Made by a program: the position numbers and the translations under genes
Part shown: positions 23,085 to 47,305 of the stretch, piece after piece
Numbering within the stretch: the stretch's first letter is position 1
How the letters are laid out: every line of letters starts with the position of its first letter
Sequence record: EU863408
Length of the DNA stretch: 64,000 nt
Reading direction: 5' to 3' (one strand)
Origin: Escherichia phage JSE
Notes under the pieces: model-generated
What the model was told of the DNA's origin: nothing
Seen by the model: only the letters and a program-made list of their open reading frames with translations
Database searches by the model: none

Positions 23085-23297
23085 TTATAATGCACCATCG
23101 AGCAATTGCTCTAAGGTGTATCCTGAATAGTCTTTTTCAATCAGGATATATTTTCCTACTCGTTTAATACAACCGCGCATTTCAACGTATTCTGCGTAGT
23201 TGATGGTACGAGTTGTTCCATCTTCCAGTAATGCAGTACCGATTTCGTTAATGCGGTCATAAGTTACGTCGGTAATGATGATTTCGATGTTAGCCAT
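23085..23297 (-). CDS. hypothetical protein
   Basis: 70 aa ORF with own promoter cassette. Confidence 0.45.
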   Translation of the reverse strand: MANIEIIITDVTYDRINEIGTALLEDGTTRTINYAEYVEMRGCIKRVGKYILIEKDYSGYTLEQLLDGAL

Positions 23298-23333
23298 TTG
23301 ATACTCCTTAGTAGTTCGTTTCTGTATGGGTGT

Positions 23334-23362
23334 ATTATGATATACACCCTCTGTTATGTCAA
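23334..23362 (-). promoter_or_regulatory. early promoter cassette (TTGACA-N17-CATAAT)
   Basis: Precedes ORF 23085..23297; -10 overlaps a GGGTGTAT/ATACACCC palindrome. Confidence 0.5.
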
Positions 23363-23368
23363 CAACTT

Positions 23369-23548
23369 TTAGAACATTTTTGAAATTAATTCTGCTTTGA
23401 TTTCGCAGAGAACATCTAAAGATTTCTCGTCACCCGCTTTTGCTGCTTCTGCTTGCATTTTTGAAATGGCTTCAATCTCAGTGCAATTATAAGCCGCTTG
23501 AACTTTAGCGATTGCGATGATTGCCGATTCGATGGTTAAGTGTTTCAT
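23369..23548 (-). CDS. hypothetical small protein (59 aa)
   Basis: AAGGAG site 8 nt upstream; preceded by promoter cassette at 23581-23609; not in track. Confidence 0.4.
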   Translation of the reverse strand: MKHLTIESAIIAIAKVQAAYNCTEIEAISKMQAEAAKAGDEKSLDVLCEIKAELISKMF

Positions 23549-23580
23549 GTTTGATTCTCCTTTCGTTTCGGTATGTGTGT

Positions 23581-23609
23581 ATTATAGGGGATCGATGATC
23601 CCCTGTCAA
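23581..23609 (-). promoter_or_regulatory. early promoter with stem-loop spacer (PeSL-like)
   Basis: TTGACA, palindromic spacer GGGGATCATCGATCCCC, TATAAT, then AAGGAG site. Confidence 0.6.
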
Positions 23610-23617
23610 CAACTTTT

Positions 23618-24136
23618 TTAGTTATTTTTTAATTGCTCATCTTGCAATAGGGCAATCACATGCTGGCGATGTTCTTCCGATTGAGGCACACCGAAAAAGT
23701 TTGTTTTGTAGAAATACTCTAATCGGTCTTCTCGTGTGCTCTCTTCCATCATGATCGCGGGTAGTCCGAGATTTCGGAAACGTCGCTTTTCTGCTGGCGT
23801 AAAATCACTGTAATACAACATAGAATCATCATTACCAGCAATGCTAAACTCATCCTTCATAAAGGAGAATATTGCGTTTAAACGCTGTTTACCGTCCACG
23901 ATTTCGATCTCATAGCGAGAGCCATCATCAATCTTAGCCATTGCGATAGCACCAACCGGAAAATCATTAATCAGGTTTTCGATAAACATACGTTTGTTTT
24001 CTGTGTCCCATACTAAAGGACGCTGATAATCTGGGTTCATGTTGATATAGCCATCTTCTAACCATGCATCATAAACAGAGATGACAAAGTTTTTAGTATT
24101 GGTATAGTAACGGCGTTTAGGCGTTAAACGGTTCAT
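23618..24136 (-). CDS. DUF262 / ParB-like nuclease-fold domain protein
   Basis: DYQRPLVW and IVDGKQRLNAI motifs typical of DUF262; start placed at ATG 24136 with AGGAG site. Confidence 0.5.
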   Translation of the reverse strand: MNRLTPKRRYYTNTKNFVISVYDAWLEDGYINMNPDYQRPLVWDTENKRMFIENLINDFPVGAIAMAKIDDGSRYEIEIVDGKQRLNAIFSFMKDEFSIAGNDDSMLYYSDFTPAEKRRFRNLGLPAIMMEESTREDRLEYFYKTNFFGVPQSEEHRQHVIALLQDEQLKNN

Positions 24137-24137
24137 G

Positions 24138-24467
24138 TTATAGTCTCCTGAATGGATCATCACGTAAATCAATATCTTTTAAGAACTCATCCCATGAATG
24201 CCGGATATTGTTCTTAATTCTCCAGATAAGCGCAGGGATTGAACGCTCTCCCATCTGGAAGTAAGGATCATATGATCCGTATGCCCAATATGCTACTACA
24301 ATTCCACAATCAGCGCAATAGTATTCTATTTCACTTGCTGGCGACCAAAGTCCATCAATATGATCGGTGATCTTGCTTTCGATGTTATGGCTATGACAAT
24401 CAGGGCAACGGATGCAATGACCTTGTTTATCGTAATTTGACGTTAGCGAATACTTAAACAATCTCAT
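24138..24467 (-). CDS. zinc-ribbon protein
   Basis: Two CxxC pairs (CIRCPDC and CADC). Confidence 0.5.
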   Translation of the reverse strand: MRLFKYSLTSNYDKQGHCIRCPDCHSHNIESKITDHIDGLWSPASEIEYYCADCGIVVAYWAYGSYDPYFQMGERSIPALIWRIKNNIRHSWDEFLKDIDLRDDPFRRL

Positions 24468-25183
24468 TATAGATCCTTATTTGCTTCAAATACTGCCTTT
24501 GCGAATCCTCGCGGGGTAAGTGACCTTATAGTCTTTGTTTTCGTTCCTTTCCCGCCTAGCTTAGAATGCTGTTTACTGTACCCTTTATTAATCTGCAACG
24601 GTTTCTTTTCTGGCATTATAAAGCCTTGTCCGGACCATAAGCAAGTCTTTTTCGGGTACATATCACGGGCGGCAATATACTCAGGAAACGTAGGATGCTT
24701 ATCATCTTCCGGCAAATAACCGCCATATTCCCACGGATGGAACATATAATCAGGCTTACGCCACATGCTAGAGATAACGCTTACAGGATTCTCTATCATG
24801 TAGGGAACTCCTAGCCATTCACCCAAATAAGCGGTTATTTTAGCTGCCCTTACATCATGAACTTGAATCAATGGTCCTTGCTCTCGTTTCTTTCGTTCAA
24901 AGTGTGCAGCGCCACTAACAGCTAAATTGGTGCACGGTGGGAATGCAAAGATAATATCCGGTTTCCCCCATTCAAGGTCCATTGCTCTTTCCAGCCAGTT
25001 CAAATCAATCCAGGTGTTTACATAGGTAATGTTTGGATGTTCAAATCTGGTATTATACTTTTTGTATGTACCGTGGTCGGCGTCATCCGCATTAAAGCAG
25101 ACTACCTTATGACCTGCTTTAGCCCATTCTAGCCCCATTATCCCCGATCCGTCAAAGTTGCAGAATATTAATTTTTGTTTCAC
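24467..25183 (-). CDS. SAM-dependent methyltransferase-like protein (cytosine-5 MTase-like motifs)
   Basis: FxGxG motif I (FDGSGIMG), PC motif IV (FPPCTNLAVSG), ENP in place of ENV; lacks an obvious target-recognition domain. Confidence 0.4.
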   Translation of the reverse strand: MKQKLIFCNFDGSGIMGLEWAKAGHKVVCFNADDADHGTYKKYNTRFEHPNITYVNTWIDLNWLERAMDLEWGKPDIIFAFPPCTNLAVSGAAHFERKKREQGPLIQVHDVRAAKITAYLGEWLGVPYMIENPVSVISSMWRKPDYMFHPWEYGGYLPEDDKHPTFPEYIAARDMYPKKTCLWSGQGFIMPEKKPLQINKGYSKQHSKLGGKGTKTKTIRSLTPRGFAKAVFEANKDL

Positions 25184-25431
25184 GCTGCCCCCATTGGTTT
25201 GATAGTAACAGAATCTAAAAGACCTTTGTTAGCCAGTTCGCGGCAAGTTTTCAGATCCGCAACTTCCCAGCCAGCCGCAATCAGGTTATCAATGAGGCTG
25301 TTAGCAACTTCTTCGCTCATGAAAGAGCACTGTTTGCCGATGGTGTAGCGTACACGCTGTAATTTCAGTTTACGGAAGCCTTTAACGTTCAGGTCTTTAG
25401 CGATTTTCTTTGCGGTTTCGATGTTAGCCAT
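25180..25431 (-). CDS. hypothetical protein, first gene of a four-gene operon
   Basis: 83 aa; overlaps the next start; promoter cassette at 25472-25500. Confidence 0.5.
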   Translation of the reverse strand: MANIETAKKIAKDLNVKGFRKLKLQRVRYTIGKQCSFMSEEVANSLIDNLIAAGWEVADLKTCRELANKGLLDSVTIKPMGAA

Positions 25432-25471
25432 TGTTTGATTCTCCTAAGTGGTATCTCGTCTTGATGGTTGT

Positions 25472-25500
25472 ATTGTAGGGGAGTTATCCTCCCCTGTCAA
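25472..25500 (-). promoter_or_regulatory. early promoter with stem-loop spacer (PeSL-like)
   Basis: TTGACA, spacer GGGGAGGATAACTCCCC, TACAAT; drives the four-gene operon 25431 to 23618. Confidence 0.55.
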
Positions 25501-25514
25501 CACTTTTTATAAAA

Positions 25515-25682
25515 TTATTTGTTAATTTCTGGTGCGTTGCTAGGATAGTAACCTTCTTTAACTCCGAGATATTTCGCAACCATCCCTACAATCTTCTGTG
25601 CTACTACAATGTCAAATTTCAGATAATCTTCGCCGTGGGTTTCAATGATATATGCTTCACATGCTGCTTTAGTCTCGAACAT
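25515..25682 (-). CDS. hypothetical small protein (55 aa), copy A of a duplicated gene
   Basis: About 85 percent nucleotide identity to 28994..29161 by eye; own promoter cassette. Confidence 0.45.
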   Translation of the reverse strand: MFETKAACEAYIIETHGEDYLKFDIVVAQKIVGMVAKYLGVKEGYYPSNAPEINK

Positions 25683-25715
25683 TTTGATTCTCCTATTTCG
25701 TTTCGGTATGTGTGT

Positions 25716-25744
25716 ATTATAGGGGATCGGTGATCCCCTGTCAA
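25716..25744 (-). promoter_or_regulatory. early promoter with stem-loop spacer (PeSL-like)
   Basis: TTGACA, GGGGATCACCGATCCCC, TATAAT. Confidence 0.6.
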
Positions 25745-25750
25745 CAACTT

Positions 25751-26062
25751 TTAGCGACGGCGACGATGTTTTTTGCGAGTTGCCTTTTTGTATGCTTTAT
25801 ATGCCTTTTTACCGTTTTTATATGCTTTTTTGGTATATGATTGATTTTTCTTATTGTTTTTGTATGTTTCCCGGTCAGTATTAATTTCGTTACATTCCAC
25901 GAAACGGTGTCGATGTTCTTGTGGTATGATCAAACATTTATCATAATTAACCATTTCGTTTTTCGTTGTTTGTGGTTTCTTTGGTGTGTTGTTTGCACTA
26001 ACAGACCCAGCAAAGAGAATGAGTATAGCGGTCATTAACGCAAACATTGTTTTCTTAATCAT
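25751..26062 (-). CDS. secreted small basic protein
   Basis: N-terminal signal peptide; lysine/arginine-rich C-terminus. Confidence 0.5.
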   Translation of the reverse strand: MIKKTMFALMTAILILFAGSVSANNTPKKPQTTKNEMVNYDKCLIIPQEHRHRFVECNEINTDRETYKNNKKNQSYTKKAYKNGKKAYKAYKKATRKKHRRRR

Positions 26063-26120
26063 AATATTCTCCTTTAGTTTCTGCGGGAGTGTGAATATAA
26101 CACTCCCTTAATATTTTGTA

Positions 26121-26402
26121 TTATTCGTGATTAGTTTCGATGTTGTGCATTTTGCACCAGTTCAGCCAATCGCCCAGATCTTGATAGTTAATGCTTTTAT
26201 CTGCTGCCATCGTTTTTGTCTTGATACCCATATGTGCGTTATGAGTAAGCATTTTTACAGTGAACTCGATTTTATCGCCTTTAGCTTTAACATCAACCAG
26301 TTTGGTCCACTGGCTACCAGCACCGCGAATGTTCATACCAACGATGTTTCCGATGTATGCTTCTTTGTTTTTCAGGATTTCGGTTGCTTTGATGAATTTC
26401 AT
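26121..26402 (-). CDS. hypothetical protein
   Basis: 93 aa ORF with promoter cassette at 26436-26464. Confidence 0.5.
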   Translation of the reverse strand: MKFIKATEILKNKEAYIGNIVGMNIRGAGSQWTKLVDVKAKGDKIEFTVKMLTHNAHMGIKTKTMAADKSINYQDLGDWLNWCKMHNIETNHE

Positions 26403-26435
26403 TTTTGATTCTCCAGTTCGTTTCGGTATGGGTGT

Positions 26436-26464
26436 ATTATGCTATGTTCTTACTTTGGTGTCAA
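26436..26464 (-). promoter_or_regulatory. early promoter (TTGACA-N17-CATAAT)
   Basis: Cassette without palindromic spacer. Confidence 0.5.
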
Positions 26465-26473
26465 CAACTTTTT

Positions 26474-26743
26474 TTAGATATTTTCAGAAATAAATTTTAA
26501 AACTTGACGTAAATGTTTCTCATCTTTGATGGTAGCCGGAAGTTCTTCTTTTACTTCCTGTGCAAGATAGATATTTCCGTTCCAAGTGAAAGATCCGTCT
26601 TCGTTTACTCGATAGCTGAACATCCACTCGCAATCATTTTCGATTTCATATACACACAGAAGGGTGTAATCGTTAAAGCTATTGATTTCAAGGTCGAAGC
26701 CGTGACGTTTTGCAAAGTTGGTAGTGGTTTTAGTCAGTACCAT
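26474..26743 (-). CDS. hypothetical protein
   Basis: 89 aa ORF with promoter cassette at 26784-26812. Confidence 0.5.
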   Translation of the reverse strand: MVLTKTTTNFAKRHGFDLEINSFNDYTLLCVYEIENDCEWMFSYRVNEDGSFTWNGNIYLAQEVKEELPATIKDEKHLRQVLKFISENI

Positions 26744-26783
26744 TGTTTGATTCTCCTAAGTGGTATCTCGTCTTGATGGGTGT

Positions 26784-26812
26784 ATTATGCTATACACAGG
26801 ATCTGGTGTCAA
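26784..26812 (-). promoter_or_regulatory. early promoter (TTGACA-N17-CATAAT)
   Basis: Same cassette family. Confidence 0.5.
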
Positions 26813-26835
26813 TGCCTTTTTTAAAATTTTATGCA

Positions 26836-26862
26836 ATAAAAAAGCCGACGCTAAGGTCGGCT
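26836..26862 (-). terminator. rho-independent terminator
   Basis: AGCCGACC-TTAG-CGTCGGCT then T7 on minus strand. Confidence 0.6.
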
Positions 26863-26869
26863 AATAAAA

Positions 26870-27177
26870 TCATTTAGACAAATAATCATTCAGTGCAATC
26901 CGGTCGGCGTATGCTGGTGTTACGTCAATCGCAATCACTTTAACGCGTGCTTTCTTGCGACCTGGGTTTTCTCGTAACCAGTGCTCATGACCGTGAACAT
27001 TTTATACTGCGATGCTTCTTCGAAAGTACGGATCGGACAAGGGTAATCAGCGTAAAGGATCTCTAGGTCTTCGGTGATGTAAAAATATACATCATAATTA
27101 CTGTTCTCTAGTTTAAGCAGAGACTTTCGGAACATTGGGAGATTTTCGCGGGTAAATTCAAAGATATTATCTTTCAT
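26870..27177 (-). pseudogene. HxHW-family small protein, frameshifted at an A4/T4 tract (26997-27000)
   Basis: Track ORF 26935..27177 carries the family N-terminus (YFYITEDLEI); the C-terminal HGHEHW...VIAIDVTPAYAD lies in another frame. Confidence 0.4.
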
Positions 27178-27227
27178 AGTATTATCCTCAATAGTTGGAT
27201 GAAAAGGGGGGCTTAATGCCCCGTATA

Positions 27228-27515
27228 TTAAAACAGTCCTTCCTGTACACCGTAGTAGAGTTCATCGCTGATAATTTCATTAATGCGACGGTGTGCATAT
27301 TCCTGATTTGCGAAGTTGTCAGCAAGTTCTACTTTAGTTTCGCCATCATGAGTCCATTTAGTGATAACTTTACCATCGGCAAATTTGAAGTTGAACTCTT
27401 TAGCTACCGCATCGCGTACCAGACGTGCAAACTTATTGTTGCGGATTGCATTGTCGGTTTCGTGTGCAGCGTGAGCGAATTTGTTAACTTTCAGAGTGAT
27501 AGTAATGTATGCCAT
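27228..27515 (-). CDS. hypothetical protein
   Basis: 95 aa; possible paralog of 30649..30960 (shared AKEFN segment). Confidence 0.5.
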   Translation of the reverse strand: MAYITITLKVNKFAHAAHETDNAIRNNKFARLVRDAVAKEFNFKFADGKVITKWTHDGETKVELADNFANQEYAHRRINEIISDELYYGVQEGLF

Positions 27516-27561
27516 AATTTGATTCTCCTAGTTAGAAAGTGTATCTCGTTTCGACGGGTGT

Positions 27562-27590
27562 ATTATGCTATACACCCGATCCATTGTCAA
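27562..27590 (-). promoter_or_regulatory. early promoter (TTGACA-N17-CATAAT)
   Basis: GGGTGTAT/ATACACCC palindrome around the -10. Confidence 0.5.
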
Positions 27591-27922
27591 CGCCTTTTTA
27601 TAAAATAATTTTCGATATCTTTATGATGTTTTTCTCGTGCTTGGTCTGCCTCGGCTGGCGATACGTTGGAAGCGATAATCTTCACTACTGTTGCACCTTT
27701 TTCGGTGTCCGACACCCAATGATTATGGAAACCGCTATTATTAAACACTTGATAAGAAAATGATTTAATGTTAGGGAAATTATAAGTGTAATAACGTACC
27801 CTTAATTCTGAATCTACGTATAGATAGATCACCGCACCTAGATAGACCGTCTCACTCGTTCCGTCAACTAACAGTAGAGTATTTCGCAATTCTTCTAAAT
27901 TGTCTTTTGTAAGAAAAATCAT
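27587..27922 (-). CDS. HxHW-family small protein
   Basis: YLYVDSEL ... HNHW ... IASNVSPAEAD. Confidence 0.55.
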   Translation of the reverse strand: MIFLTKDNLEELRNTLLLVDGTSETVYLGAVIYLYVDSELRVRYYTYNFPNIKSFSYQVFNNSGFHNHWVSDTEKGATVVKIIASNVSPAEADQAREKHHKDIENYFIKRR

Positions 27923-27936
27923 AGTATAATCCTCAA

Positions 27937-28272
27937 TTAAACCAAATTAACTTTGGTGTTGTGGTGGTTTTCTCGTGCGTCGTCCGCTTCTTCCGGTGTC
28001 ACGTTACGAGCGACGACAATAACACTTGCTGCCTCTCCGTGATGATAGATCTCTACCCAATGGTTATGATTTGCGAATCCGTGTTTTATTGCGTAAGCGA
28101 ACGGCTTAGACGTCCAGTAGTAACTATAATATCGTACATTTAGATCGCTATCAATGTACAAATATGTGCTGTCGTTTACATTGCCACTAACAACAAAAAC
28201 AAGACAATTGCGAAGATCTGACAATATTTTGTCTGTCAATTTTATAATGTGACTGTTCATAATTAACACCAC
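27937..28272 (-). CDS. HxHW-family small protein
   Basis: YLYIDSDL ... HNHW ... VARNVTPEEAD; tandem with 27587..27922. Confidence 0.55.
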   Translation of the reverse strand: MVLIMNSHIIKLTDKILSDLRNCLVFVVSGNVNDSTYLYIDSDLNVRYYSYYWTSKPFAYAIKHGFANHNHWVEIYHHGEAASVIVVARNVTPEEADDARENHHNTKVNLV

Positions 28273-28478
28273 TCAAGAGTTTTTGAAAACACATCTATCC
28301 ATTGTTGAGTATATGCGGTTTCTTTCCATGACACAATACCAGTCGAATAATGGTTTTTGTTTCCAGAAAAGGACGGGCATTTTGATGCATCTTCCATCAT
28401 CTTTTCGGCGAACTCTGGTTCGTATACCCGCAGAATCTGTTGATATGCTTTGTATTCTTTAAATTTGCTCATAATCAT
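28263..28478 (-). CDS. hypothetical protein
   Basis: 71 aa ORF. Confidence 0.4.
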   Translation of the reverse strand: MIMSKFKEYKAYQQILRVYEPEFAEKMMEDASKCPSFSGNKNHYSTGIVSWKETAYTQQWIDVFSKTLEWC

Positions 28479-28737
28479 TCACTACCTTATCAGCTTCTTT
28501 TGTTGTTTTTACATCAACTGCGATAACCCGTAAAGGTTCGTCATGGTTCCACCAATGATCGTGAATATCGGCTTGTGATTTATCACCAAAGGAATCACGA
28601 ATATCATTTTTACATTTATAGCTAATGTGACCGTCATAGTCAACATAAAGGTAATTATCGAAAATCGGCGTTTTTAAGATCATACCGAAAAATCTTTCTT
28701 TGTGTGTCTTATCCAGTGTTGCAGTAATTCGCATCAT
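28459..28737 (-). CDS. HxHW-family small protein
   Basis: YLYVDYDG ... HDHWW ... VIAVDVKTTKEAD. Confidence 0.5.
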   Translation of the reverse strand: MMRITATLDKTHKERFFGMILKTPIFDNYLYVDYDGHISYKCKNDIRDSFGDKSQADIHDHWWNHDEPLRVIAVDVKTTKEADKVVNDYEQI

Positions 28738-28749
28738 AATATATTCCTC

Positions 28750-28929
28750 TTAGAAAGGGATGGTCATTTCTTGAGCTTGTACATTCTCGTTAGGATTAAA
28801 CTTCATCCAACCGATATTGTCTACCAGCATATGCACATTTTTATCATATCCTACGTGGGTAGTCAATACTGTATGTGCTTTACCTTCAACGATGATTTCC
28901 ATGTACTTCTGAACTTCGATAGCTTTCAT
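28750..28929 (-). CDS. hypothetical small protein (59 aa)
   Basis: GGAGAATCAAA-ATG start context; promoter cassette at 28962-28990; not in track. Confidence 0.4.
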   Translation of the reverse strand: MKAIEVQKYMEIIVEGKAHTVLTTHVGYDKNVHMLVDNIGWMKFNPNENVQAQEMTIPF

Positions 28930-28961
28930 TTTGATTCTCCGTTTGTTGTCTTGATGGGAGT

Positions 28962-28990
28962 ATCTTACTACTCCCTTTAATCATTGTCAA
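28962..28990 (-). promoter_or_regulatory. early promoter cassette, weak -10 (TAAGAT)
   Basis: TTGACA plus GGGAGTA/TACTCCC palindrome. Confidence 0.4.
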
Positions 28991-28993
28991 CTA

Positions 28994-29161
28994 TTATTTG
29001 TTAATTTCCGGTGCGTTGCTTGGATAGTAGCCTTCTTTAACACCCAGATATTTTGCAACCATTCCGGTGATCTTCTGTGCTACTACGATATCGAATTTCA
29101 GGTAGTCTTCACCGTGGTTTGCTACAATGTATGCTTCGCATTCTGCTTTAGTCTGGAACAT
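28994..29161 (-). CDS. hypothetical small protein (55 aa), copy B of a duplicated gene
   Basis: Paralog of 25515..25682; start placed at ATG 29161 because the longer track ORF would include the promoter. Confidence 0.45.
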   Translation of the reverse strand: MFQTKAECEAYIVANHGEDYLKFDIVVAQKITGMVAKYLGVKEGYYPSNAPEINK

Positions 29162-29195
29162 TTTTGATTCTCCTATATCTCGTTGGTATGTGTGC

Positions 29196-29224
29196 ATTAT
29201 AGGGGATCACCGATCCCCTGTCAA
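29196..29224 (-). promoter_or_regulatory. early promoter with stem-loop spacer (PeSL-like)
   Basis: TTGACA, GGGGATCGGTGATCCCC, TATAAT. Confidence 0.6.
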
Positions 29225-29229
29225 CAACT

Positions 29230-29524
29230 TTATAATGCTTTATATGCGTATTTCATAAATTTGTCTGCCACTTCATTGGCATGTTCAGATTCTACGCCTG
29301 ATTCGAGAACAATAGCTAGGTCGGTTTCGTCATTCCCGCCGTACCAATGATTTGATGTTCGATTTTTTTCAATTGGAAATTGGTCACTTTTATCTGTGCG
29401 ACAAAATACATCTAAATGCTCATCGATGTAAAAGATCCAATCTTCATAAAGAATAACGGGTATTAGCAAGATTTTTATTGCCTTCAACGAAAGGTTCGGC
29501 TACAAACAAATTAGTATGTTCCAT
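29230..29524 (-). pseudogene. HxHW-family small protein, frameshifted at an A5/T5 tract (29472-29476)
   Basis: ATG at 29524 with TATAAT and GAGG upstream reads 26 codons then stops; the family body (IFYIDEHL ... SNHW ...) continues in the +1 frame. Confidence 0.4.
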
Positions 29525-29540
29525 AGTAATTTCCTCAAAA

Positions 29541-29732
29541 TTATACAGCTTCGTAAACTTCCCAATGTCCAACACCAGCACGCTTAACGAAAAGGTTTTC
29601 TTTGATGTTATTCATAAACGTCTGGATGGATTTAATGCGGTTTGAAGGTTTCCATTCTTCGTTGGAATTGCGGCGATACATAATAACATTACCAGTTCGC
29701 TTATATTCAGCAACCATTTTAAGACAACACAT
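29541..29732 (-). CDS. hypothetical protein
   Basis: 63 aa ORF. Confidence 0.35.
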   Translation of the reverse strand: MCCLKMVAEYKRTGNVIMYRRNSNEEWKPSNRIKSIQTFMNNIKENLFVKRAGVGHWEVYEAV

Positions 29733-29788
29733 AATATTATCCTCAATTTGTGGGAGAGTATTACCCCTCCCGATGTTGTTATATTACA

Positions 29789-30109
29789 TTACACAAAATG
29801 GCGTGTCAATGCTTCTTTTGCGGTTCCGCTAAGACTTTCGATCTCGCCTGGCATAACATCAACCGCCAGAACTTCTACAACATCCTCGGACCCTAACCAG
29901 TGAGTATGGCCTTTGTAGAACTTGATAACCAGACTACCTTCCTCGTCCCATTTAACGCTATCGCTAGCCCACCACACATCACCGTCGATAAAGTTGATGT
30001 AAAGCACACTACGCCACATTGAATTAATTACTTTCAATACTGCGCCTTTCATCTCTTCCACGGTATGGTCTTCCATTTTGAAGACCTCACCTACCTGAAC
30101 TTTTGCCAT
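29789..30109 (-). CDS. HxHW-family small protein
   Basis: GHTHW ... VLAVDVMPGE; start placed at ATG 30109 right after the stop of the upstream ORF. Confidence 0.5.
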   Translation of the reverse strand: MAKVQVGEVFKMEDHTVEEMKGAVLKVINSMWRSVLYINFIDGDVWWASDSVKWDEEGSLVIKFYKGHTHWLGSEDVVEVLAVDVMPGEIESLSGTAKEALTRHFV

Positions 30110-30110
30110 G

Positions 30111-30377
30111 TTACATGCTCCGAATATGTTTAGCTGCATCTTCCAGTTCGTCGATAGTGACACTGTGTGCCAGTAAGTGTACTGGTTGTGGTTCTTCACC
30201 TTCCATAGTATTGATCAGATGACCGTTTCCTGGGTGGAATGTATCGTTGCCGTTCCAAATAGCATACACATCATCTTCTGTTACGTAGATAATAAGTCCA
30301 ATCGGTGATTCTGGTAATTGAAAAATTTTACCCACTGCATCTTTGCGATTGTTTACGATATCTTTTACTGTCTTCAT
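30111..30377 (-). CDS. hypothetical protein, divergent relative of the HxHW family
   Basis: IYVTEDDVY and LLAHSVTIDELEDA resemble family blocks. Confidence 0.4.
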   Translation of the reverse strand: MKTVKDIVNNRKDAVGKIFQLPESPIGLIIYVTEDDVYAIWNGNDTFHPGNGHLINTMEGEEPQPVHLLAHSVTIDELEDAAKHIRSM

Positions 30378-30396
30378 TTAGTTACCTCTCGTTAAA

Positions 30397-30576
30397 TTAC
30401 ATCACAATCACGCCAGCCGTTGAAAGTTGATGTTTCAACTGAGCATTTTCTGCTACTGTCAAATCAATGATTTCTTGTGACGCTGCAATCATATAGCCAT
30501 TGGTGATATTGTTTTGCATCAGTTCAATGGTTTCTTCGTTGTAGCGGATTTTAGCGATGATTTCGTTGAAGTTCAT
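30397..30576 (-). CDS. hypothetical small protein (59 aa)
   Basis: Promoter cassette at 30611-30640 and GGAGAATCAAAC-ATG start context; not in track. Confidence 0.4.
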   Translation of the reverse strand: MNFNEIIAKIRYNEETIELMQNNITNGYMIAASQEIIDLTVAENAQLKHQLSTAGVIVM

Positions 30577-30610
30577 GTTTGATTCTCCTAGTTCGTTTCG
30601 GTATGTGTGT

Positions 30611-30640
30611 ATTATAGGGGAGTTTAACCTCCCCTGTCAA
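30611..30640 (-). promoter_or_regulatory. early promoter with stem-loop spacer (PeSL-like)
   Basis: TTGACA, GGGGAGGTTAAACTCCCC, TATAAT. Confidence 0.55.
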
Positions 30641-30648
30641 CAACTTTT

Positions 30649-30960
30649 TTAAAGTTTTTCCATGATAACGGTCATAATTACATCTTCTGCGCGAGCGGTC
30701 AGATTATCAGCGTCAGCATGTGGGCGGTTGGTTGTTACAGAGATAACACCGTTGCGCACTGGTTTGATATTGATATCAAGATGATCCGCGAAACGTTCGC
30801 CAGTTACAGAATGAATTTTGGTGTTAAATTCTTTTGCCAGTGCCTTGCGAACTTCACGAATCAGGATAGCGTTTTTCAGTTGGTTCTCCGCGCTCATGGT
30901 CTTCTGGGTGTTCATGGTTCCGTCGAAGTCAATCATTGGCAGCGTTACGATGTATTTCAT
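30649..30960 (-). CDS. hypothetical protein
   Basis: 103 aa ORF with promoter cassette at 31006-31034. Confidence 0.5.
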   Translation of the reverse strand: MKYIVTLPMIDFDGTMNTQKTMSAENQLKNAILIREVRKALAKEFNTKIHSVTGERFADHLDINIKPVRNGVISVTTNRPHADADNLTARAEDVIMTVIMEKL

Positions 30961-31005
30961 TTTTGATTCTCCGTTTAAGAAAGTGTGTTTCGTTTTGATG
31001 TGTGT

Positions 31006-31034
31006 AGTATAGGGGATACGTGATCCCCTGTCAA
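31006..31034 (-). promoter_or_regulatory. early promoter with stem-loop spacer (PeSL-like)
   Basis: TTGACA, GGGGATCACGTATCCCC, TATACT. Confidence 0.5.
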
Positions 31035-31047
31035 CAACTTTTTTGAA

Positions 31048-31392
31048 TTATTTTTTCATGAGCTTAATGGCTTCTTCCATAGCCAGCACATTTCGATAGT
31101 TAGGGTATCGTGTTAGATCGTCATACATTCGCTTAAGGGTGGAAACTTCCTCAAACTCTGGGTTTTCTAGATACAGTTGAACAAATTGTTTCTCTACCAT
31201 CTCGGCTTTTAGCTTGTCTGCTTGTTCCTGTTCATATGATTTCGTTGGACCCAACACCAACAAAATGATAAAGGTGATCAACGGGCTAATGATCAATGAT
31301 AGGATAACATAACCGATAACGCTACGGTTTAAACGGCTTGCGTACATGCCTACCAGGAAAACAAAAAGGATATAGATAAACAGAAAGAACAT
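31048..31392 (-). CDS. small membrane protein
   Basis: Two hydrophobic helices at the N-terminus. Confidence 0.5.
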   Translation of the reverse strand: MFFLFIYILFVFLVGMYASRLNRSVIGYVILSLIISPLITFIILLVLGPTKSYEQEQADKLKAEMVEKQFVQLYLENPEFEEVSTLKRMYDDLTRYPNYRNVLAMEEAIKLMKK

Positions 31393-38780: not shown

Positions 38781-39179
38781 TTAACTTTCCAGAATATCGC
38801 GAGCTTCGTTACGCTCCTTGATGATTTTCAGGACAAATTCCAGTTTTTCTTTGTTCAGTGTTCCGTTTTCCATTGCTTCTTTGACGGTAAACACTCCGCC
38901 ACCTTGCCCGTATACAGTGACAGTGATTTCACCTAACATCGTGGTATGAAAACCGCCAATTTTCGGTGATTCGAAAGAAACAATCACCTCACGGATAGTA
39001 TTGCCATCGTTGATTTCTTCCAGCGTAATATCGCTTTTGTAAGCGGTTGCTTTAACCATACGGATCAGCATAGTCTGATCTGGGGAGATGGTCATTTTGT
39101 CCATTGCATGTTGCAATGCAGCGTAACCGAAAACTTTAACGAAGTCCAGAACGTCTTTGCGAGTTTGAAATTTAATCAT
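38781..39179 (-). CDS. hypothetical protein
   Basis: 132 aa ORF with promoter cassette at 39220-39249. Confidence 0.5.
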   Translation of the reverse strand: MIKFQTRKDVLDFVKVFGYAALQHAMDKMTISPDQTMLIRMVKATAYKSDITLEEINDGNTIREVIVSFESPKIGGFHTTMLGEITVTVYGQGGGVFTVKEAMENGTLNKEKLEFVLKIIKERNEARDILES

Positions 39180-39219
39180 CTTGATACTCCTTAGTAAGTT
39201 AGTTTCGTTTCGATGGGGT

Positions 39220-39249
39220 ATCTTACTACCCCCGTTTCAGGCTGTCAAC
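39220..39249 (-). promoter_or_regulatory. early promoter cassette, weak -10
   Basis: TTGACA plus GGGGGTAGTAAGATACCCC palindrome. Confidence 0.4.
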
Positions 39250-39467
39250 TACTTTTTAATGACAAGTTCGAATTTTGCTACCTTACGTCCTCGTTTATTG
39301 AAAGCAACCCACGGACGGTTTTCAATGTAGAACAATTCTTCGCCAATAATGAATACTGGCTGATTGTAAAGGCGACCCATCAGGTCACGCTGGCGAATGG
39401 TAGTAGATTCGTATACTTCGCCTACTACAAAGTGTTTGCTGATAGAGTCGGTGCAAGTAAATTTCAT
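39249..39467 (-). CDS. hypothetical protein
   Basis: 72 aa ORF with promoter cassette at 39501-39530. Confidence 0.45.
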   Translation of the reverse strand: MKFTCTDSISKHFVVGEVYESTTIRQRDLMGRLYNQPVFIIGEELFYIENRPWVAFNKRGRKVAKFELVIKK

Positions 39468-39500
39468 TTTGATTCTCCTGTGTTTCGTTTCGATGGGGGT

Positions 39501-39530
39501 ATCTTACTACCCCCCGCTATTCAGTGTCAA
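39501..39530 (-). promoter_or_regulatory. early promoter cassette, weak -10
   Basis: TTGACA plus GGGGGGTAGTAAGATACCCCC palindrome. Confidence 0.4.
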
Positions 39531-39537
39531 CTACTTT

Positions 39538-39756
39538 TTACTTGTTGTATTCATTCCACCATTGAGTGAGCTTATCAATTATTTTTGTGTTTCTATCCAA
39601 CTTATCCCACCGTTTTCGAGGGTTTATCAACCGGAATAGGTAAGGTGTACTTGTTAAGTGAACTCGGTCACTGTAGTGATTGATGTACTGCTTTTCAATT
39701 CTAAGTTTCATCTTTTTACGATGAAAATATGCAATGACTTGTTCTTCTGTTTCCAT
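39538..39756 (-). CDS. hypothetical protein
   Basis: 72 aa ORF with promoter cassette at 39781-39809. Confidence 0.45.
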   Translation of the reverse strand: METEEQVIAYFHRKKMKLRIEKQYINHYSDRVHLTSTPYLFRLINPRKRWDKLDRNTKIIDKLTQWWNEYNK

Positions 39757-39780
39757 ATGTTCCTCCGTTTCGATGTGCGT

Positions 39781-39809
39781 ATTATGCTATGGTAAGATCC
39801 GATTGTCAA
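39781..39809 (-). promoter_or_regulatory. early promoter (TTGACA-N17-CATAAT)
   Basis: Precedes ORF 39538..39756. Confidence 0.5.
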
Positions 39810-39857
39810 CACCCAATAACAAAAAAAGTCGCCACTATGGGCGACTTTGAACAAACA

Positions 39858-42214: not shown

Positions 42215-42382
42215 TTATCCGACAACCTCAAAACATTTATCATCAGGAAGAATAGCCCATTCTACGCCGTATTCATCCTCAACGTAGTAGCAAGTCCCAT
42301 CATGTCGAGCATCATATTCATCACCGACAACAAAGCTATCAGCTAGCTCAAAATCTACAGCAACACATTTTAATTTGGTCAT
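42215..42382 (-). CDS. hypothetical small protein (55 aa)
   Basis: Start placed at internal ATG 42382 with GAGG site; promoter cassette at 42414-42442. Confidence 0.4.
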   Translation of the reverse strand: MTKLKCVAVDFELADSFVVGDEYDARHDGTCYYVEDEYGVEWAILPDDKCFEVVG

Positions 42383-42413
42383 AATAAAATCCTCACTTGT
42401 TTTTGATGGTTGT

Positions 42414-42442
42414 ATTATAGCGGGGATTTCTCCCCGCGTCAA
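42414..42442 (-). promoter_or_regulatory. early promoter with stem-loop spacer (TTGACG-N17-TATAAT)
   Basis: Spacer GCGGGGAGAAATCCCCGC. Confidence 0.5.
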
Positions 42443-42450
42443 CACTTATT

Positions 42451-44694
42451 TTACAGCTTGCAAGATGAGCACTCGCTAGCGTCTTCCGTACCATCTGCAC
42501 CGTCGCGAACGTTCGCATAATACAGGGTTTTCAGACCGTAATATTGAGCAAACAACATATCATCTAACACATCAGCAATATCGACTTTACCAGTCTTATA
42601 AGTGCTTGGATCGTATGATGTATTGGAACTAATCGCCTGATCCACAAACTTCTGCATGATCGCTGCCAGTGTGAGATAAGGCTTGTTACCTTTCTTGATC
42701 AGTGTCCAAAGCAGGTCAATAACATCAGCATTATTCTCTACGTTCGGAATAACCTGATTAAATTGCCCTTCTTTCGATCCTTTAACCGATACAATCCCGC
42801 GAGGCGGTTCAATACCGTTTGTGCTGTTAGATACCTGAGAAGACGACTCACAAGGCATCAGCGCCGACAGTGTACTGTTACGAATGCCATATTTTTTCAG
42901 GTCTTCGCGCAGTTCTTCCCAATCCATCTCATACACCGGATCAACCAGTTCATCTACTGTCTTTTTGTACCAGTCGATAGGAAGTTCACCGCGACCATAG
43001 CGTGTTTCGTGCATCAGTTCGCAAGCACCCTTCTCTTTAGCCAGTCGCACACTAGCCTTAATCAGAGCATATTGCAAGCGTTCAAACGTTTTATGCGTAA
43101 ACTCGTTAGCGTCTTCATATGTGAAGAAATTATCTGCTAGATATGATGCAAAGTTAGTCACACCAACACCCAGAGAGCGACGTTTTTTGGCTGTCAGAGC
43201 TTGTTCTACAGGATAATCCTGATAATCTAACAGGTTGTCAAGTGCACGCACCATAACCATAGCAATGCGTTCTACTTCTTCCATATTTTCGATATCGAAA
43301 TTACCTAAAACATATGCTGCCAAAGTACATAGGCTAATTTCTGAATCATCACGACCCATCGGTTTTGTAGGCAGAGCAATTTCACAACACAGGTTAGATT
43401 GTTTAATCGGTGCTACATTACGAATAAACGCCCCGTGATTGTTCATGTTGTCTGTGAACGTTGGGTAGATTCGACCAGTGTTAAAACGTTCAATTGCCAC
43501 CGCTAAAAACAGGTCTTCGGCTTTAACACGAGTTTTACGAACACTCGGATCTTTTTCCAGTTTTTCGTAAAGCTGGCGGAAACCTTCCTCGTCTCGGAAG
43601 TACAGATCCCACAACAAGCCACCCGCAACATCTGGACTAAACAGAGTAATGTAATCCCGTTTAAGGAATCGCTCTACCATCAGGTTATTAATCTGTACGC
43701 CGTAATCAAGATGACGAATGCGGTTATCTTCCACCCCCTTATTGTTCTTTAACACAATCAGACTTTCAAACTCTAAATGCCATATTGGGTAATAGAGAGT
43801 CGCCGCCCCGCCACGAATGCCGCCTTGTGAGCATGACTTAACGGCCGTCTGAAAATGTTTCCAGAATGGGATAACGCCAGTATGACGAACTTCACCATGC
43901 CCGATCTTAGATCCTTCCGCGCGAATCATGCCAGCGTTGATACCGATACCAGCACGCTTGCTAATATACTTGATGATTGCATTTGCTGTTTCGTTGATGC
44001 CCTGCAATGAGTCATCACTTTCGATCACCACACACGAACTAAATTGGCGTGTTGGGGTACGCACACCTGCCATAATCGGAGTAGGTAGAGAGATTTGCTT
44101 ATTCGCAACAGCATTATAAAAATCAATCACATGTTCAAGTCGATTTTCTGTCTCTTCTTGATGCAAGCACATACCGATCAGCATATACGCAAATTGTGGT
44201 GTTTCGATGATTTTCTTAGTGCTGCGATCCTGAACAAGATATTTCTCTTTTAACTGCATCGCACCAGCATAGGTCATTTTAAAATCAAGTTTATGGTCGA
44301 TGAATTTCTCCAGATATTCCACTTCTTCATGGGAATACTTTTGCAGAATTTCGCGATCATATTTTCCGGTTGCAATATTACGCTCAATATGGCTGTAAAA
44401 ATCAATCGGTTGGAATTGACCGTATACTGATTTGCGAAGCGCGAACATTGCAAGGTTACTTGCTACATATTGATAATCGGGTGTTTCTACAGTAATGTTA
44501 TCTGCTGCGACCTTAATCAATACTTTCTGGATATCGTTGGTAGACATACCTTCTGTCAGAAGTGGTTCAACCATATCAAACAATTCATATGGATCAACGT
44601 TATGACCTTCGGCTGCCGCTTCCAGAATTTTCATTACTTTTTCTTTTTCAAACGGAACAGTCAGACCGGAAGACTTAACAACATTTTTAATCAT
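42451..44694 (-). CDS. nrdA: ribonucleotide reductase alpha subunit
   Basis: 747 aa; ATP-cone N-terminus; class I RNR large-subunit size, adjacent to nrdB. Confidence 0.95.
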   Translation of the reverse strand: MIKNVVKSSGLTVPFEKEKVMKILEAAAEGHNVDPYELFDMVEPLLTEGMSTNDIQKVLIKVAADNITVETPDYQYVASNLAMFALRKSVYGQFQPIDFYSHIERNIATGKYDREILQKYSHEEVEYLEKFIDHKLDFKMTYAGAMQLKEKYLVQDRSTKKIIETPQFAYMLIGMCLHQEETENRLEHVIDFYNAVANKQISLPTPIMAGVRTPTRQFSSCVVIESDDSLQGINETANAIIKYISKRAGIGINAGMIRAEGSKIGHGEVRHTGVIPFWKHFQTAVKSCSQGGIRGGAATLYYPIWHLEFESLIVLKNNKGVEDNRIRHLDYGVQINNLMVERFLKRDYITLFSPDVAGGLLWDLYFRDEEGFRQLYEKLEKDPSVRKTRVKAEDLFLAVAIERFNTGRIYPTFTDNMNNHGAFIRNVAPIKQSNLCCEIALPTKPMGRDDSEISLCTLAAYVLGNFDIENMEEVERIAMVMVRALDNLLDYQDYPVEQALTAKKRRSLGVGVTNFASYLADNFFTYEDANEFTHKTFERLQYALIKASVRLAKEKGACELMHETRYGRGELPIDWYKKTVDELVDPVYEMDWEELREDLKKYGIRNSTLSALMPCESSSQVSNSTNGIEPPRGIVSVKGSKEGQFNQVIPNVENNADVIDLLWTLIKKGNKPYLTLAAIMQKFVDQAISSNTSYDPSTYKTGKVDIADVLDDMLFAQYYGLKTLYYANVRDGADGTEDASECSSCKL

Positions 44695-47246: not shown

Positions 47247-47277
47247 AATATAATCCTCTCTTTGTTTCGATGTGTGT

Positions 47278-47305
47278 ATTATACATTACCACATAAGCAT
47301 GTCAA
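47278..47305 (-). promoter_or_regulatory. early promoter (TTGACA-N16-TATAAT)
   Basis: Precedes ORF 46917..47246. Confidence 0.5.

What the first reader, a model, noticed from the sequence alone, without database searches (positions are those of the whole stretch)
23298..31040. Hyperplastic region of small genes, each with a promoter-stem-loop cassette
Over about 8 kb nearly every small minus-strand ORF is preceded by the same roughly 70 bp module: A-tract, TTGACA, a 16-18 bp spacer that is usually a perfect GC palindrome (for example GGGGATCATCGATCCCC), a TATAAT-like -10, a conserved leader and a GGAG Shine-Dalgarno site. I count at least 17 copies across the window, including 39180-39820, 42395-42455 and 47255-47320. 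This matches the PeSL (promoter early stem-loop) cassettes that I recall being proposed as drivers of modular gene shuffling in RB49-type phages. The palindrome sitting inside the promoter spacer is unusual and could also act as a protein-binding or recombination site.
Basis: partly seen in the sequence, partly recalled or inferred. Interest (0 to 1): 0.6.

Follow-up and report, generated by a model that had tools for sequence, protein, structure and literature searches.

The report
Known PeSL promoter cassettes, RB49-like phage
The repeated promoter-plus-hairpin modules are real, but they are the already published "PeSL" early-promoter/terminator cassettes of RB49-type coliphages, and two copies here are letter-for-letter identical to the elements tested in the 2010 paper, so the finding is correct but ordinary.

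Summary
The window is a Krischvirus, an RB49-like T4-type coliphage. Positions 23298-31040 are the hyperplastic region between alt and the HNH/DNA-ligase genes, corresponding to RB49 ORFs 185-211. PeSLs were defined and tested in this region by Arbiol et al. 2010.

A profile finds 16 strong cassette copies in the window, all on the minus strand, plus 2 weak ones. Eleven lie in the finding region.

- Only 11 of 25 genes in the region have their own cassette; the rest sit in operons of 2-5 genes.
- The hairpin lies in the spacer in 7 of 16 copies and over the -10 in 5. In 3 copies it is replaced by a canonical terminator just upstream, and 1 copy has neither.

Cassettes c29224 and c31034 are 100% identical to RB49 PeSL206/205 (tested promoter) and PeSL211/210 (tested terminator).

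Comparison with 14 relatives gave 14 structural events. Six left chimeric cassettes, with crossovers between the -10 and the Shine-Dalgarno site and none in the palindrome. Four events have nothing to do with cassettes. Cassette junctions are no more plastic than other gene junctions.

Verdict: already known.

The parts
30945..31049 (-). Cassette c31034, equal to RB49 PeSL211/210. -35 TTGACA at 31029-31034, spacer hairpin GGGGATCACGTATCCCC at 31012-31028, -10 TATACT at 31006-31011, leader, GGAG, then the ATG of gene 30649-30960.
   Evidence: nhmmer E 2e-19; 11/12 promoter match; hairpin of -11 kcal/mol; 100% identical over 121 nt to RB49.
30560..30657 (-). Cassette c30640. TTGACA, 18-nt spacer hairpin GGGGAGGTTAAACTCCCC, TATAAT. 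It leads the operon 30397-30576 / 30111-30377 / 29789-30106.
   Evidence: 12/12; -15 kcal/mol; 3/200 shuffles fold as well.
29144..29240 (-). Cassette c29224, equal to RB49 PeSL206/205. Spacer hairpin GGGGATCGGTGATCCCC, TATAAT. It leads gene 28994-29161.
   Evidence: (12/12); 100% identical over 106 nt to RB49. [quoted passage not shown]
28913..29005 (-). Cassette c28990. The stem GGGAGTA/TACTCCC overlaps the -10 TAAGAT. It leads a five-gene operon, 28750-28929 through 27587-27922.
   Evidence: -12.2 kcal/mol, z -3.3.
27503..27607 (-). Cassette c27590. The stem GGGTGTAT/ATACACCC overlaps the -10 CATAAT. It leads gene 27228-27515.
   Evidence: -17 kcal/mol; 0/200 shuffles. Relatives carry the compensated allele GGGGATAT/ATATCCCC at the same slot.
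26727..26862 (-). Cassette c26812 with only a weak 6-bp stem, preceded by a canonical terminator at 26843-26862 (AGCCGAC...GTCGGCT followed by TTTTTT). It leads gene 26474-26743.
   Evidence: z -0.8. In 8 relatives a 97-bp copy of this unit flanks a 406-bp insertion.
26386..26480 (-). Cassette c26464. The promoter and leader are intact, but there is no hairpin and no upstream terminator. It leads gene 26121-26402.
   Evidence: -2 kcal/mol, z +0.1.
25666..25756 (-). Cassette c25744. Spacer hairpin GGGGATCACCGATCCCC, TATAAT. It leads gene 25515-25682.
   Evidence: 12/12; 0/200 shuffles.
25413..25518 (-). Cassette c25500. Spacer hairpin GGGGAGGATAACTCCCC, TACAAT. It leads the operon 25180-25431 / methyltransferase 24467-25183 / 24138-24467 / DUF262 protein 23618-24136.
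   Evidence: -19.4 kcal/mol, z -4.4; for the GmrSD_N domain.
23537..23621 (-). Cassette c23609. It leads gene 23369-23548.
   Evidence: 12/12; 1/200 shuffles.
23280..23379 (-). Cassette c23362. The stem GGGTGTAT/ATACACCC overlaps the -10 CATAAT. It leads gene 23085-23297, which is followed by a canonical terminator at 23064-23078.
   Evidence: 0/200 shuffles.
39725..39848 (-). Cassette c39809, without an embedded stem, preceded by a canonical terminator at 39825-39848.
39450..39542 (-). Cassette c39530. The stem GGGGGTA/TACCCCC lies over the -10 TAAGAT.
39164..39264 (-). Cassette c39248. The stem GGGGTA/TACCCC lies over the -10 TAAGAT.
42380..42455 (-). Cassette c42455. TTGACG, spacer hairpin CGGGGAGAAATCCCCG, TATAAT, then the alternative ribosome-binding motif GTGAGGATTTTATTATG.
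   Evidence: It was not a seed for the profile, yet scores E 2e-5. Sequence; -19 kcal/mol, z -5.4.
47215..47359 (-). Cassette c47305, without an embedded stem, preceded by a canonical terminator at 47336-47359.
29745..29815 (-). Weak variant. TTGACA-17-TAATAT lies inside the 3' end of gene 29789-30106, followed by the hairpin GGGAGGG/CTCTCCC, which contains one G-U pair and lies downstream of the -10. It precedes gene 29541-29732.
   Evidence: nhmmer E 0.31; 10/12 promoter match; -20.6 kcal/mol, z -3.5.
25751..26125 (-). A module absent from all 14 relatives compared, at the RB49 ORF192 slot. It consists of the hairpin GGGAGTGT/ACACTCCC (26085-26107), with a TGnTATATT-like -10 in its loop, plus a 103-aa ORFan with a signal peptide (25751-26062).
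   Evidence: Absent from the 14 relatives and from 50,697 phage records. Present in the same slot in 3 short assemblies. Hairpin z -3.8.

Best explanation
These are PeSLs (promoter-early stem-loops), the composite regulatory cassettes of RB49-type phages.

Each cassette has four parts:
- an A-rich tract that also holds the stop codon of the upstream gene;
- a near-consensus sigma-70 promoter (TTGACA, 17 nt, TATAAT/CATAAT/TAAGAT), read by unmodified host RNA polymerase straight after infection;
- a conserved, unstructured A/C-rich leader of about 30-45 nt ending in GGAGAATCAAA-ATG, for efficient translation;
- a hairpin with a G-run 5' arm and a C-run 3' arm, placed in the spacer or over the -10.

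The hairpin is not part of the cassette's own transcript. It forms in RNA that reads through from the upstream unit and stops or attenuates that transcript. Each small gene or short operon is therefore an insulated, self-sufficient expression module.

Because about 70-100 bp are shared between cassettes that head unrelated genes, homologous recombination between two cassettes deletes, inserts or swaps whole modules without breaking expression. The crossovers fall in the shared leader between the -10 and the Shine-Dalgarno site.

Shown here: the anatomy, the identity with the tested RB49 elements, the chimeric cassettes and the crossover positions. Shown in the literature for RB49/phi1 elements, two of which have identical copies in this window: promoter strength, termination by the stem-loop, and mini-circles. 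Inferred: early timing, the transcription start site, and that every copy works like the two that were tested.
For: - Identity of the phage and the region.
- Definition and experiments: PMC2839356.
- 16 copies, all on the strand of the genes. Consensus promoters occur about 100-fold above chance.
- c29224 and c31034 are 100% identical to RB49 PeSL206/205 and PeSL211/210.
- 12 of 16 copies carry a 6-9 bp hairpin of -10 to -19 kcal/mol. At least 8 different stem sequences occur in 3 different registers, always with the G-rich arm 5' on the sense strand, and one includes a G-U pair.
- Three of the four copies without an embedded stem have a canonical GC-stem plus T-run terminator 10-35 nt upstream of the -35. 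None of the 12 stem-bearing copies has one. The chance that all 3 terminators fall among the 4 stemless copies is 4/560 = 0.007.
- At one orthologous slot both arms changed together: GGGTGTAT/ATACACCC versus GGGGATAT/ATATCCCC.
- Only one pair among the 16 cassette-led genes is paralogous, so cassette similarity stops at the ATG and is not a by-product of gene duplication.
- Six of 14 structural differences from 14 relatives are cassette-by-cassette events: five leave a chimeric cassette and one leaves a duplicated cassette unit flanking an insertion, with junction homology of up to 97 bp. The five chimeras have their crossover between the -10 and the Shine-Dalgarno site. This is the same zone as the sequenced mini-circle junctions.
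Against: - No embedded hairpin is followed by a U-tract, so none is called by a standard terminator scan. Termination rests on one published reporter experiment with one element.
- Column-wise covariation is weak: 70.5% of cells are paired, and about half of the unique -10-overlapping variants across 15 genomes lack a full stem.
- One cassette (c26464) has neither a hairpin nor a terminator.
- Cassette junctions are not more often broken than other gene junctions: 10 of 20 junction breakpoints against 11 of 25 junctions. Four of 14 events use 3-17 bp microhomology at cassette-free junctions.
- No expression data exist for this phage.
Confidence: 0.9

Rival explanations
1. The palindrome acts at the DNA level. 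It would extrude as a hairpin or cruciform and be the actual recombination or cleavage hotspot, for example as a substrate for a T4-type endonuclease VII, or it would mediate template switching.
For: - The commonest spacer element is a perfect 7+7 palindrome.
- Its two commonest loops, ACC and GGT, are reverse complements of each other, and both occur at 4 orthologous slots. That is what an inversion of the hairpin would produce.
- The paper reports that the stems block sequencing polymerase on single-stranded DNA.
Against: - In all five chimeric cassettes the palindrome travels intact with the upstream parent, and the crossover lies 3' of the -10.
- The stemless or weak-stem unit c26812 also recombined, leaving a 97-bp repeat around a 406-bp insertion.
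- All 14 stems have the same strand polarity and one uses a G-U pair. Both point to a strand-specific RNA role.
- Stems of 6-8 bp are short for cruciform extrusion (own knowledge).
- Only one reverse-complement loop pair is seen, with a chance probability of about 0.02-0.09. Patchy gene conversion between cassettes explains the allele swapping equally well.
Confidence: 0.1
2. The palindrome is an operator for a dimeric phage or host protein that regulates the early promoters, for example to shut them off.
For: - It is a perfect inverted repeat located inside the promoter, which is the classic operator position.
- The GGGGATC...GATCCCC subfamily is conserved in many copies and contains two GATC sites.
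Against: - At least 8 unrelated stem sequences occur in three registers relative to the promoter. In 3 copies the hairpin is replaced by an ordinary terminator outside the promoter.
- At a single orthologous slot, completely different palindromes alternate between phages.
- What is conserved is the pairing and its polarity, not the sequence.
Confidence: 0.05
3. The repeats are passive. Strong promoters and leaders look alike because of selection for the sigma-70 consensus and because of ancient tandem duplication. Gene-content differences arise at any gene boundary, and the 'mobile cassette' role is over-read.
For: - Breakpoints are not enriched at cassette junctions relative to other gene junctions.
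- Four of 14 events occur at cassette-free junctions with 3-17 bp microhomology. One lies between two copies of a second ribosome-binding motif.
- The window's unique ORFan is found only in the same slot elsewhere, so no movement between slots was seen.
Against: - The similarity extends over about 70-100 nt, including non-consensus leader positions, and links genes that are not paralogous.
- Six independent events left chimeric or duplicated cassettes.
- Inverse-PCR mini-circles with the same junction zone are published.
Confidence: 0.15

Closest known systems
PeSL (promoter-early stem-loop) cassettes of coliphages RB49 and phi1 (Arbiol, Comeau, Kutateladze, Adamia, Krisch 2010, Genome Biol Evol 2:140; PMC2839356)
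   Same: It is the same phage genus, the same hyperplastic region (RB49 ORFs 185-211) and the same architecture: A-rich tract holding the upstream stop codon, consensus -35/-10, polyG/polyC stem-loop in several positions, Shine-Dalgarno site and ATG. Two copies are 100% identical to the published PeSL206/205 and PeSL211/210. The crossover zone between the -10 and the Shine-Dalgarno site is also the same.
   Different: Nothing differs in kind. This phage has its own mix of modules. It carries a third allele at the ORF192 slot, a 103-aa ORFan. It lacks RB49p189.1 and RB49p195-196. It has an extra gene at 30111-30377. With 14 genomes rather than 2, about half of the events do not involve cassettes.
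PeSL-like promoter-terminator motifs in T4/PST and KVP40/nt-1 (Comeau, Arbiol, Krisch 2014; PMC4122927)
   Same: The concept is the same: a composite terminator/promoter at the boundaries of variable genes in hyperplastic regions of T4-like phages.
   Different: Those motifs have different sequences. The exact spacer palindrome of this window occurs in only two Krischvirus-sized contigs of IMG/VR, so this sequence family appears to be specific to the genus.
Canonical intrinsic (Rho-independent) terminators
   Same: Both have a GC-rich hairpin with the G-rich arm 5', placed at the end of a gene. In this window the two are interchangeable: cassettes without an embedded hairpin have a canonical terminator instead.
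   Different: The embedded hairpins are followed by the -10 hexamer (UAUAAU) or by AUCGAAAC, not by a U-tract, and they fail a standard terminator scan.

Membership tests
PeSL (Arbiol et al. 2010) | Located in a hyperplastic region of a T4-type phage genome, mostly directly upstream of small genes of unknown function. | tested here: met
   The window is a Krischvirus and the region maps to RB49 ORFs 185-211 between alt and HNH/gp30. Of 20 proteins scanned against Pfam, 18 have no hit above the curated cut-off. The outlying copies precede small hypothetical genes near denA, nrdA/B and frd.
PeSL (Arbiol et al. 2010) | Sequence identical or close to the E. coli sigma-70 consensus (-35 and -10), with an AT-rich region upstream that holds the stop codon of the upstream gene. 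| tested here: met
   In the finding region, 10 sites match 11-12 of 12 consensus positions, all on the minus strand. GTTGACA-N15-19-TANAAT occurs 14 times against 0.13 expected. A-tracts with the upstream TAA are visible.
PeSL (Arbiol et al. 2010) | A stable stem-loop, often polyG followed by polyC, in one of five positions: in the spacer, over the -10, over the -35, upstream in the AT-rich region, or downstream of the -10. | tested here: met
   Seven copies have it in the spacer, 5 over the -10 and 3 upstream (as canonical terminators). One variant has it downstream of the -10, and relatives have a form overlapping the -35 (TTGACGGGGATC...). One copy (c26464) has none.
PeSL (Arbiol et al. 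2010) | A Shine-Dalgarno sequence and the start codon of the downstream gene at the 3' end. | tested here: met
   GGAGAATCAA followed by ATG occurs in 11 exact copies on the minus strand, with near-matches in most other cassettes. Two outlying copies use GAGGATTnTATTATG instead.
PeSL (Arbiol et al. 2010) | Promoter activity: strong and sigma-70-dependent, expected to be early. | not testable with these tools
   [quoted passage not shown] The window copy is 100% identical over 106 nt to the RB49 element of that name.
PeSL (Arbiol et al. 2010) | The stem-loop terminates or attenuates upstream transcription. | tested here: inconclusive
   No U-tract follows the embedded stems. However, the stems and canonical terminators are distributed in a complementary way (p about 0.007), and the stem polarity is strand-specific. 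The published reporter test used the stem-loop of PeSL211/210, which is 100% identical here.
PeSL (Arbiol et al. 2010) | Recombination between cassettes creates indels and replacements of the flanked genes. | tested here: met
   Six of 14 events against 14 relatives are cassette-by-cassette, leaving chimeric or duplicated cassettes. The mapped crossovers lie between the -10 and the Shine-Dalgarno site. Two more events end at the A-rich 5' edge of a cassette.
PeSL (Arbiol et al. 2010) | Formation of excised mini-circles during infection. | not testable with these tools
   This needs inverse PCR on infected cells or phage stocks.
Intrinsic terminator | A GC-rich hairpin immediately followed by a run of U. 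| tested here: not met
   In the two regions scanned (22900-31500 and 38900-47600), the convincing minus-strand terminator-like sites are those at 23064-23078, 26843-26862, 27208-27222, 39825-39848 and 47336-47359. None of the 12 embedded hairpins passes.

The most novel reading that the evidence does not exclude
The hairpin may be an independently evolving DNA element inside the cassette, not only an RNA attenuator. At a single orthologous slot, closely related phages alternate between a handful of stem-loop alleles while both flanks stay the same. The two commonest loops, ACC and GGT, are exact reverse complements. This could mean that the palindrome inverts or is rewritten through hairpin-templated switching in vivo. 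That would give an observable flip-flop marker of DNA secondary structure forming during T4-type replication or recombination.
Probability: 0.1. Interest if true: 0.45.

Novelty: already known. Interest (0 to 1): 0.15.

Why it matters
PeSLs are one of the few concrete sequence-level explanations for how T4-like phages gain and lose small accessory genes without breaking their expression. This window adds no new kind of element.

It does extend the two-genome study in four useful ways:
- Natural chimeric cassettes in 14 further genomes have the same crossover zone as the experimental mini-circles.
- Embedded hairpins and ordinary terminators are interchangeable, which supports the insulator role from sequence alone.
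- The palindrome is not the crossover site.
- Roughly half of the gene-content changes in this region do not need cassettes at all, which tempers the claim that cassettes are the 'driver of plasticity'.

Tried and rejected
- Rfam at a permissive threshold gave only one sub-threshold snoRNA chance hit and no curated family.
- Formal covariation on 28 unique -10-overlapping variants was weak: 70.5% of cells paired, 3 pairs with changes on both sides, and a covariation score reached by 6/500 shuffles. I do not rest the structural claim on it.
- A scan of IMG/VR for the exact spacer palindrome found only two Krischvirus-sized contigs. That was too few to test the loop flip-flop idea.
- I searched for the window's unique ORFan to see whether the module sits in other slots or genomes. 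There is no match in 50,697 phage records by DNA or protein. Two near-identical proteins turned up in short assemblies, but in the same slot, so there is no evidence of movement between slots.
- Per-segment diversity across orthologous slots shows an invariant -35 and 2-3 spacer alleles per slot. The -10 and leader values are inflated by one slot with an 18-nt spacer, so I did not use the numbers.
- My first chaining of BLAST segments was misled by the repeated cassettes. I redid it with a 150-bp minimum segment length.
- The breakpoint enrichment looked significant against a uniform null (p 0.003) but vanished against a gene-junction null. I report both.
- The idea that cassettes are repeated only because gene-plus-promoter units were duplicated is rejected: just one paralogous pair exists among the 16 cassette-led genes.

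Full report
**What the window is.** The 8.3 kb around the finding matches 62 phage records, almost all Krischvirus (RB49-like T4-type coliphages), mostly at 90-99% identity. The best single record, vB_EcoM_G37-3, covers only 83%. In RB49 the region corresponds to ORFs 185-211, between the alt ADP-ribosyltransferase gene (window 20966-23017) and the HNH endonuclease/gp30 ligase genes (window 31400-33368). PeSL193/192, PeSL206/205 and PeSL211/210 were defined and tested in this hyperplastic region (PMC2839356).

- GTTGACA-N15-19-TANAAT occurs 14 times against 0.13 expected by shuffling.
- GGAGAATCAA with up to 1 mismatch occurs 16 times against 5.2 expected.
- A profile built from 15 copies I picked by eye recovers them at E 1e-12 to 1e-20. 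It also finds a 16th copy that was not a seed, at 42400-42455 (E 2e-5), and two weak matches at 6918-6978 and 29766-29817.
- All copies lie on the minus strand, the strand of the genes. The same profile finds 141 further copies in the homologous regions of 14 relatives, all on the gene strand.

Two statements are too strong.
- Of 25 genes between 23018 and 31399, only 11 have their own cassette. The others sit in operons of 2-5 genes and use a second conserved translation-initiation motif, TTGAGGATAATAYTATG, which has 10 matches against 0.6 expected.
- The hairpin lies inside the spacer in 7 of 16 copies and over the -10 hexamer in 5. It is not embedded at all in 4.

**Anatomy.** Reading 5' to 3' on the gene strand, each cassette contains:
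- the last codons and stop codon of the upstream gene inside an A-rich tract (AAAAAGTTG);
- TTGACA, which is invariant within orthologous slots;
- a 17-nt spacer (18 nt in two copies);
- TATAAT, TATACT, TACAAT, CATAAT or TAAGAT;
- ACACACAT or ACACCCAT;
- one of three or four leader variants, such as ACCGAAACGAA or CAAGACGAGATACCACTT;
- GGAGAATCAAA and then ATG.

Twelve copies contain a clean 6-9 bp hairpin of -10 to -19 kcal/mol. Several are matched by 0-3 of 200 shuffles. At least eight unrelated stem sequences are used:
- GGGGATC/GATCCCC
- GGGGAG/CTCCCC
- CGGGGA/TCCCCG
- GGGTGTAT/ATACACCC
- GGGGATAT/ATATCCCC
- GGGAGTA/TACTCCC
- GGGGGTA/TACCCCC
- GGGAGTGT/ACACTCCC

These occur in three registers relative to the promoter. 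Every stem has the G-rich arm 5' on the sense strand, and one includes a G-U pair.

**What the hairpin is for.** The published view is that it terminates or attenuates transcription coming from upstream.

From sequence alone the embedded stems are not canonical terminators. None is followed by a T-run, and a standard scan does not call any of them.

A different test supports the published view. Three of the four cassettes without an embedded stem (c26812, c39809, c47305) have an ordinary GC-stem plus T-run terminator 10-35 nt upstream of their -35, at 26843-26862, 39825-39848 and 47336-47359. None of the 12 stem-bearing cassettes has one. The probability that all three terminators fall among the four stemless copies is 4/560 = 0.007. 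The embedded hairpin and an ordinary terminator are therefore interchangeable. Only c26464 has neither.

The constant strand polarity and the G-U pair also point to a role in the sense-strand RNA rather than in duplex DNA.

Column-wise covariation is weak (70.5% of cells paired). At the slot upstream of gene 27228-27515, however, related phages carry either GGGTGTAT/ATACACCC or GGGGATAT/ATATCCCC, a double compensatory change in both arms.

**Membership.** c29224 is 100% identical over 106 nt to RB49 PeSL206/205, for which the paper measured about 13,000 Miller units. c31034 is 100% identical over 121 nt to RB49 PeSL211/210, whose stem-loop cut reporter expression about as much as the rrnB T1 terminator. 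This is membership by identity with the type elements, not by resemblance.

**Do the cassettes mediate shuffling?** I compared window 20900-33400 with 14 relatives and reduced the differences to 14 distinct structural events.

Six events are recombination between two cassettes:
- Loss of gene 23369-23548 in five phages.
- Loss of the ORF191 homologue in three phages.
- A 406-bp insertion in eight phages, flanked by a 97-bp repeat of cassette c26812 with its terminator.
- Loss of ORF210 in Whisky and, independently, in four phages that also lack ORF211.
- A 2.8-kb deletion in MIZ4.

In the five events that leave a chimeric cassette, the upstream parent supplies the A-tract, the -35, the hairpin and the -10. 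The downstream parent supplies the leader and the ribosome-binding site. [quoted passage not shown] The palindrome is never the crossover point.

The other eight events are as follows.
- Two end exactly at the A-rich 5' edge of a cassette: the ORFan module at 25752|26120, and ORF211 at 31055|31413.
- One is a 3.8-kb deletion in Cognac between the paralogous genes 25515-25682 and 28994-29161.
- One is an allelic replacement at 27631-28257.
- Four have no cassette at either end and show 3-17 bp microhomology: 24133, 25167-25182, 29538|29730 and 30109|30375. One of these lies between two copies of the second ribosome-binding motif.

Breakpoint ends are enriched in cassette footprints against a uniform null (9 of 21 against 15.5%, p 0.003). 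They are not enriched against a null that allows only gene junctions (10 of 20 against 11 of 25). Cassette recombination is therefore real and frequent. It is one mechanism among several, and on this sample cassette junctions are not more plastic than other gene junctions.

**Rival readings.**
- Simple duplication of gene-plus-promoter units is excluded. Only one pair among the 16 cassette-led genes is paralogous, and the similarity stops at the ATG.
- A sequence-specific operator is unlikely, because sequence and register vary while pairing and polarity are kept.
- A DNA-level role for the palindrome is not excluded. At four orthologous slots the loop alternates between ACC and GGT, which are exact reverse complements, while both flanks are unchanged. 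This is what an inversion of the hairpin would give. It is a single loop pair, with a chance probability of roughly 0.02-0.09, and gene conversion between cassettes explains it equally well.

**Comparison with what is known, and verdict.** Everything essential was published in 2010 for RB49 and phi1, and extended to other T4-like phages in 2014 (PMC4122927). No Rfam family exists. The exact spacer palindrome occurs in only two Krischvirus-sized contigs of IMG/VR, so this sequence family appears to be specific to the genus. Interest is low. The small additions are the complementary distribution of hairpins and terminators, the confirmation of the crossover zone in natural genomes, and the parity with cassette-free junctions.

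Noticed in passing
window 26870-27177 and 29225-29530 (minus strand): There are two single-base homopolymer frameshifts relative to every relative examined. The ORF197-like gene has A4 instead of A5, and the ORF206-like gene has one extra C. They are either real pseudogenes of dispensable genes or sequencing errors. The first gene also sits between two canonical terminators (27208-27222 and 26843-26862) with no promoter of its own.
   Followed up: partly
window 27175-27191, 27920-27936, 29522-29538, 29730-29746, 35241-35257, 42380-42396, 47244-47260, 63959-63975 (minus strand): A second conserved translation-initiation motif, TTGAGGATAATAYTATG, is used by genes inside operons and by two outlying cassettes. 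It has 10 matches against 0.6 expected. Two copies provide the 17-bp homology at the 191-bp deletion of gene 29541-29732 in phage UPWr_E1.
   Followed up: partly
window 25751-26125 (minus strand): A 103-aa ORFan with a signal peptide and a very basic C-terminus, together with its own hairpin, occupies the slot where RB49 has ORF192 and phi1-like phages have nothing. It is absent from 50,697 GenBank phage records. It is present at 91-97% identity, in the same slot, in three short assemblies (ERR13956019, ERR13253407, ERR2029780).
   Followed up: yes
cassette spacers, e.g. window 25722-25738 (ACC loop) and 29202-29218 (GGT loop); loci L001-L014: The loop alleles ACC and GGT of GGGGATC-NNN-GATCCCC are exact reverse complements. 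Both occur at four orthologous slots whose flanks are otherwise identical. This suggests hairpin inversion or very short conversion tracts.
   Followed up: partly
window 23618-25183 (minus strand): One operon, driven by cassette c25500, holds a small protein with a GmrSD N-terminal (DUF262) domain (E 5e-20), a zinc-ribbon protein, and a 238-aa protein that relatives annotate as a DNA methyltransferase (Dcm-like) but which has no Pfam hit at E 0.01. This may be a small defence or counter-defence module. MIZ4 lacks the whole block.
   Followed up: no
window 25167-25182 and 30110-30374: There are gene-precise indels without cassettes. The window lacks RB49p189.1 (226 bp, with a 16-bp junction homology). 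It carries an 88-aa gene (30111-30377) that is absent from 12 of the 14 relatives and present in G37-3 and UPWr_E1.
   Followed up: partly
window 27587-28251 and 26870-27177 (minus strand): This is a small paralogous family: genes 27587-27922, 27937-28251 and the frameshifted 26870-27177 share 29-43% identity. The 27631-28257 segment is an allele shared only with phage KMB43; the other relatives that retain this part of the region carry a different segment of about 770 bp.
   Followed up: partly
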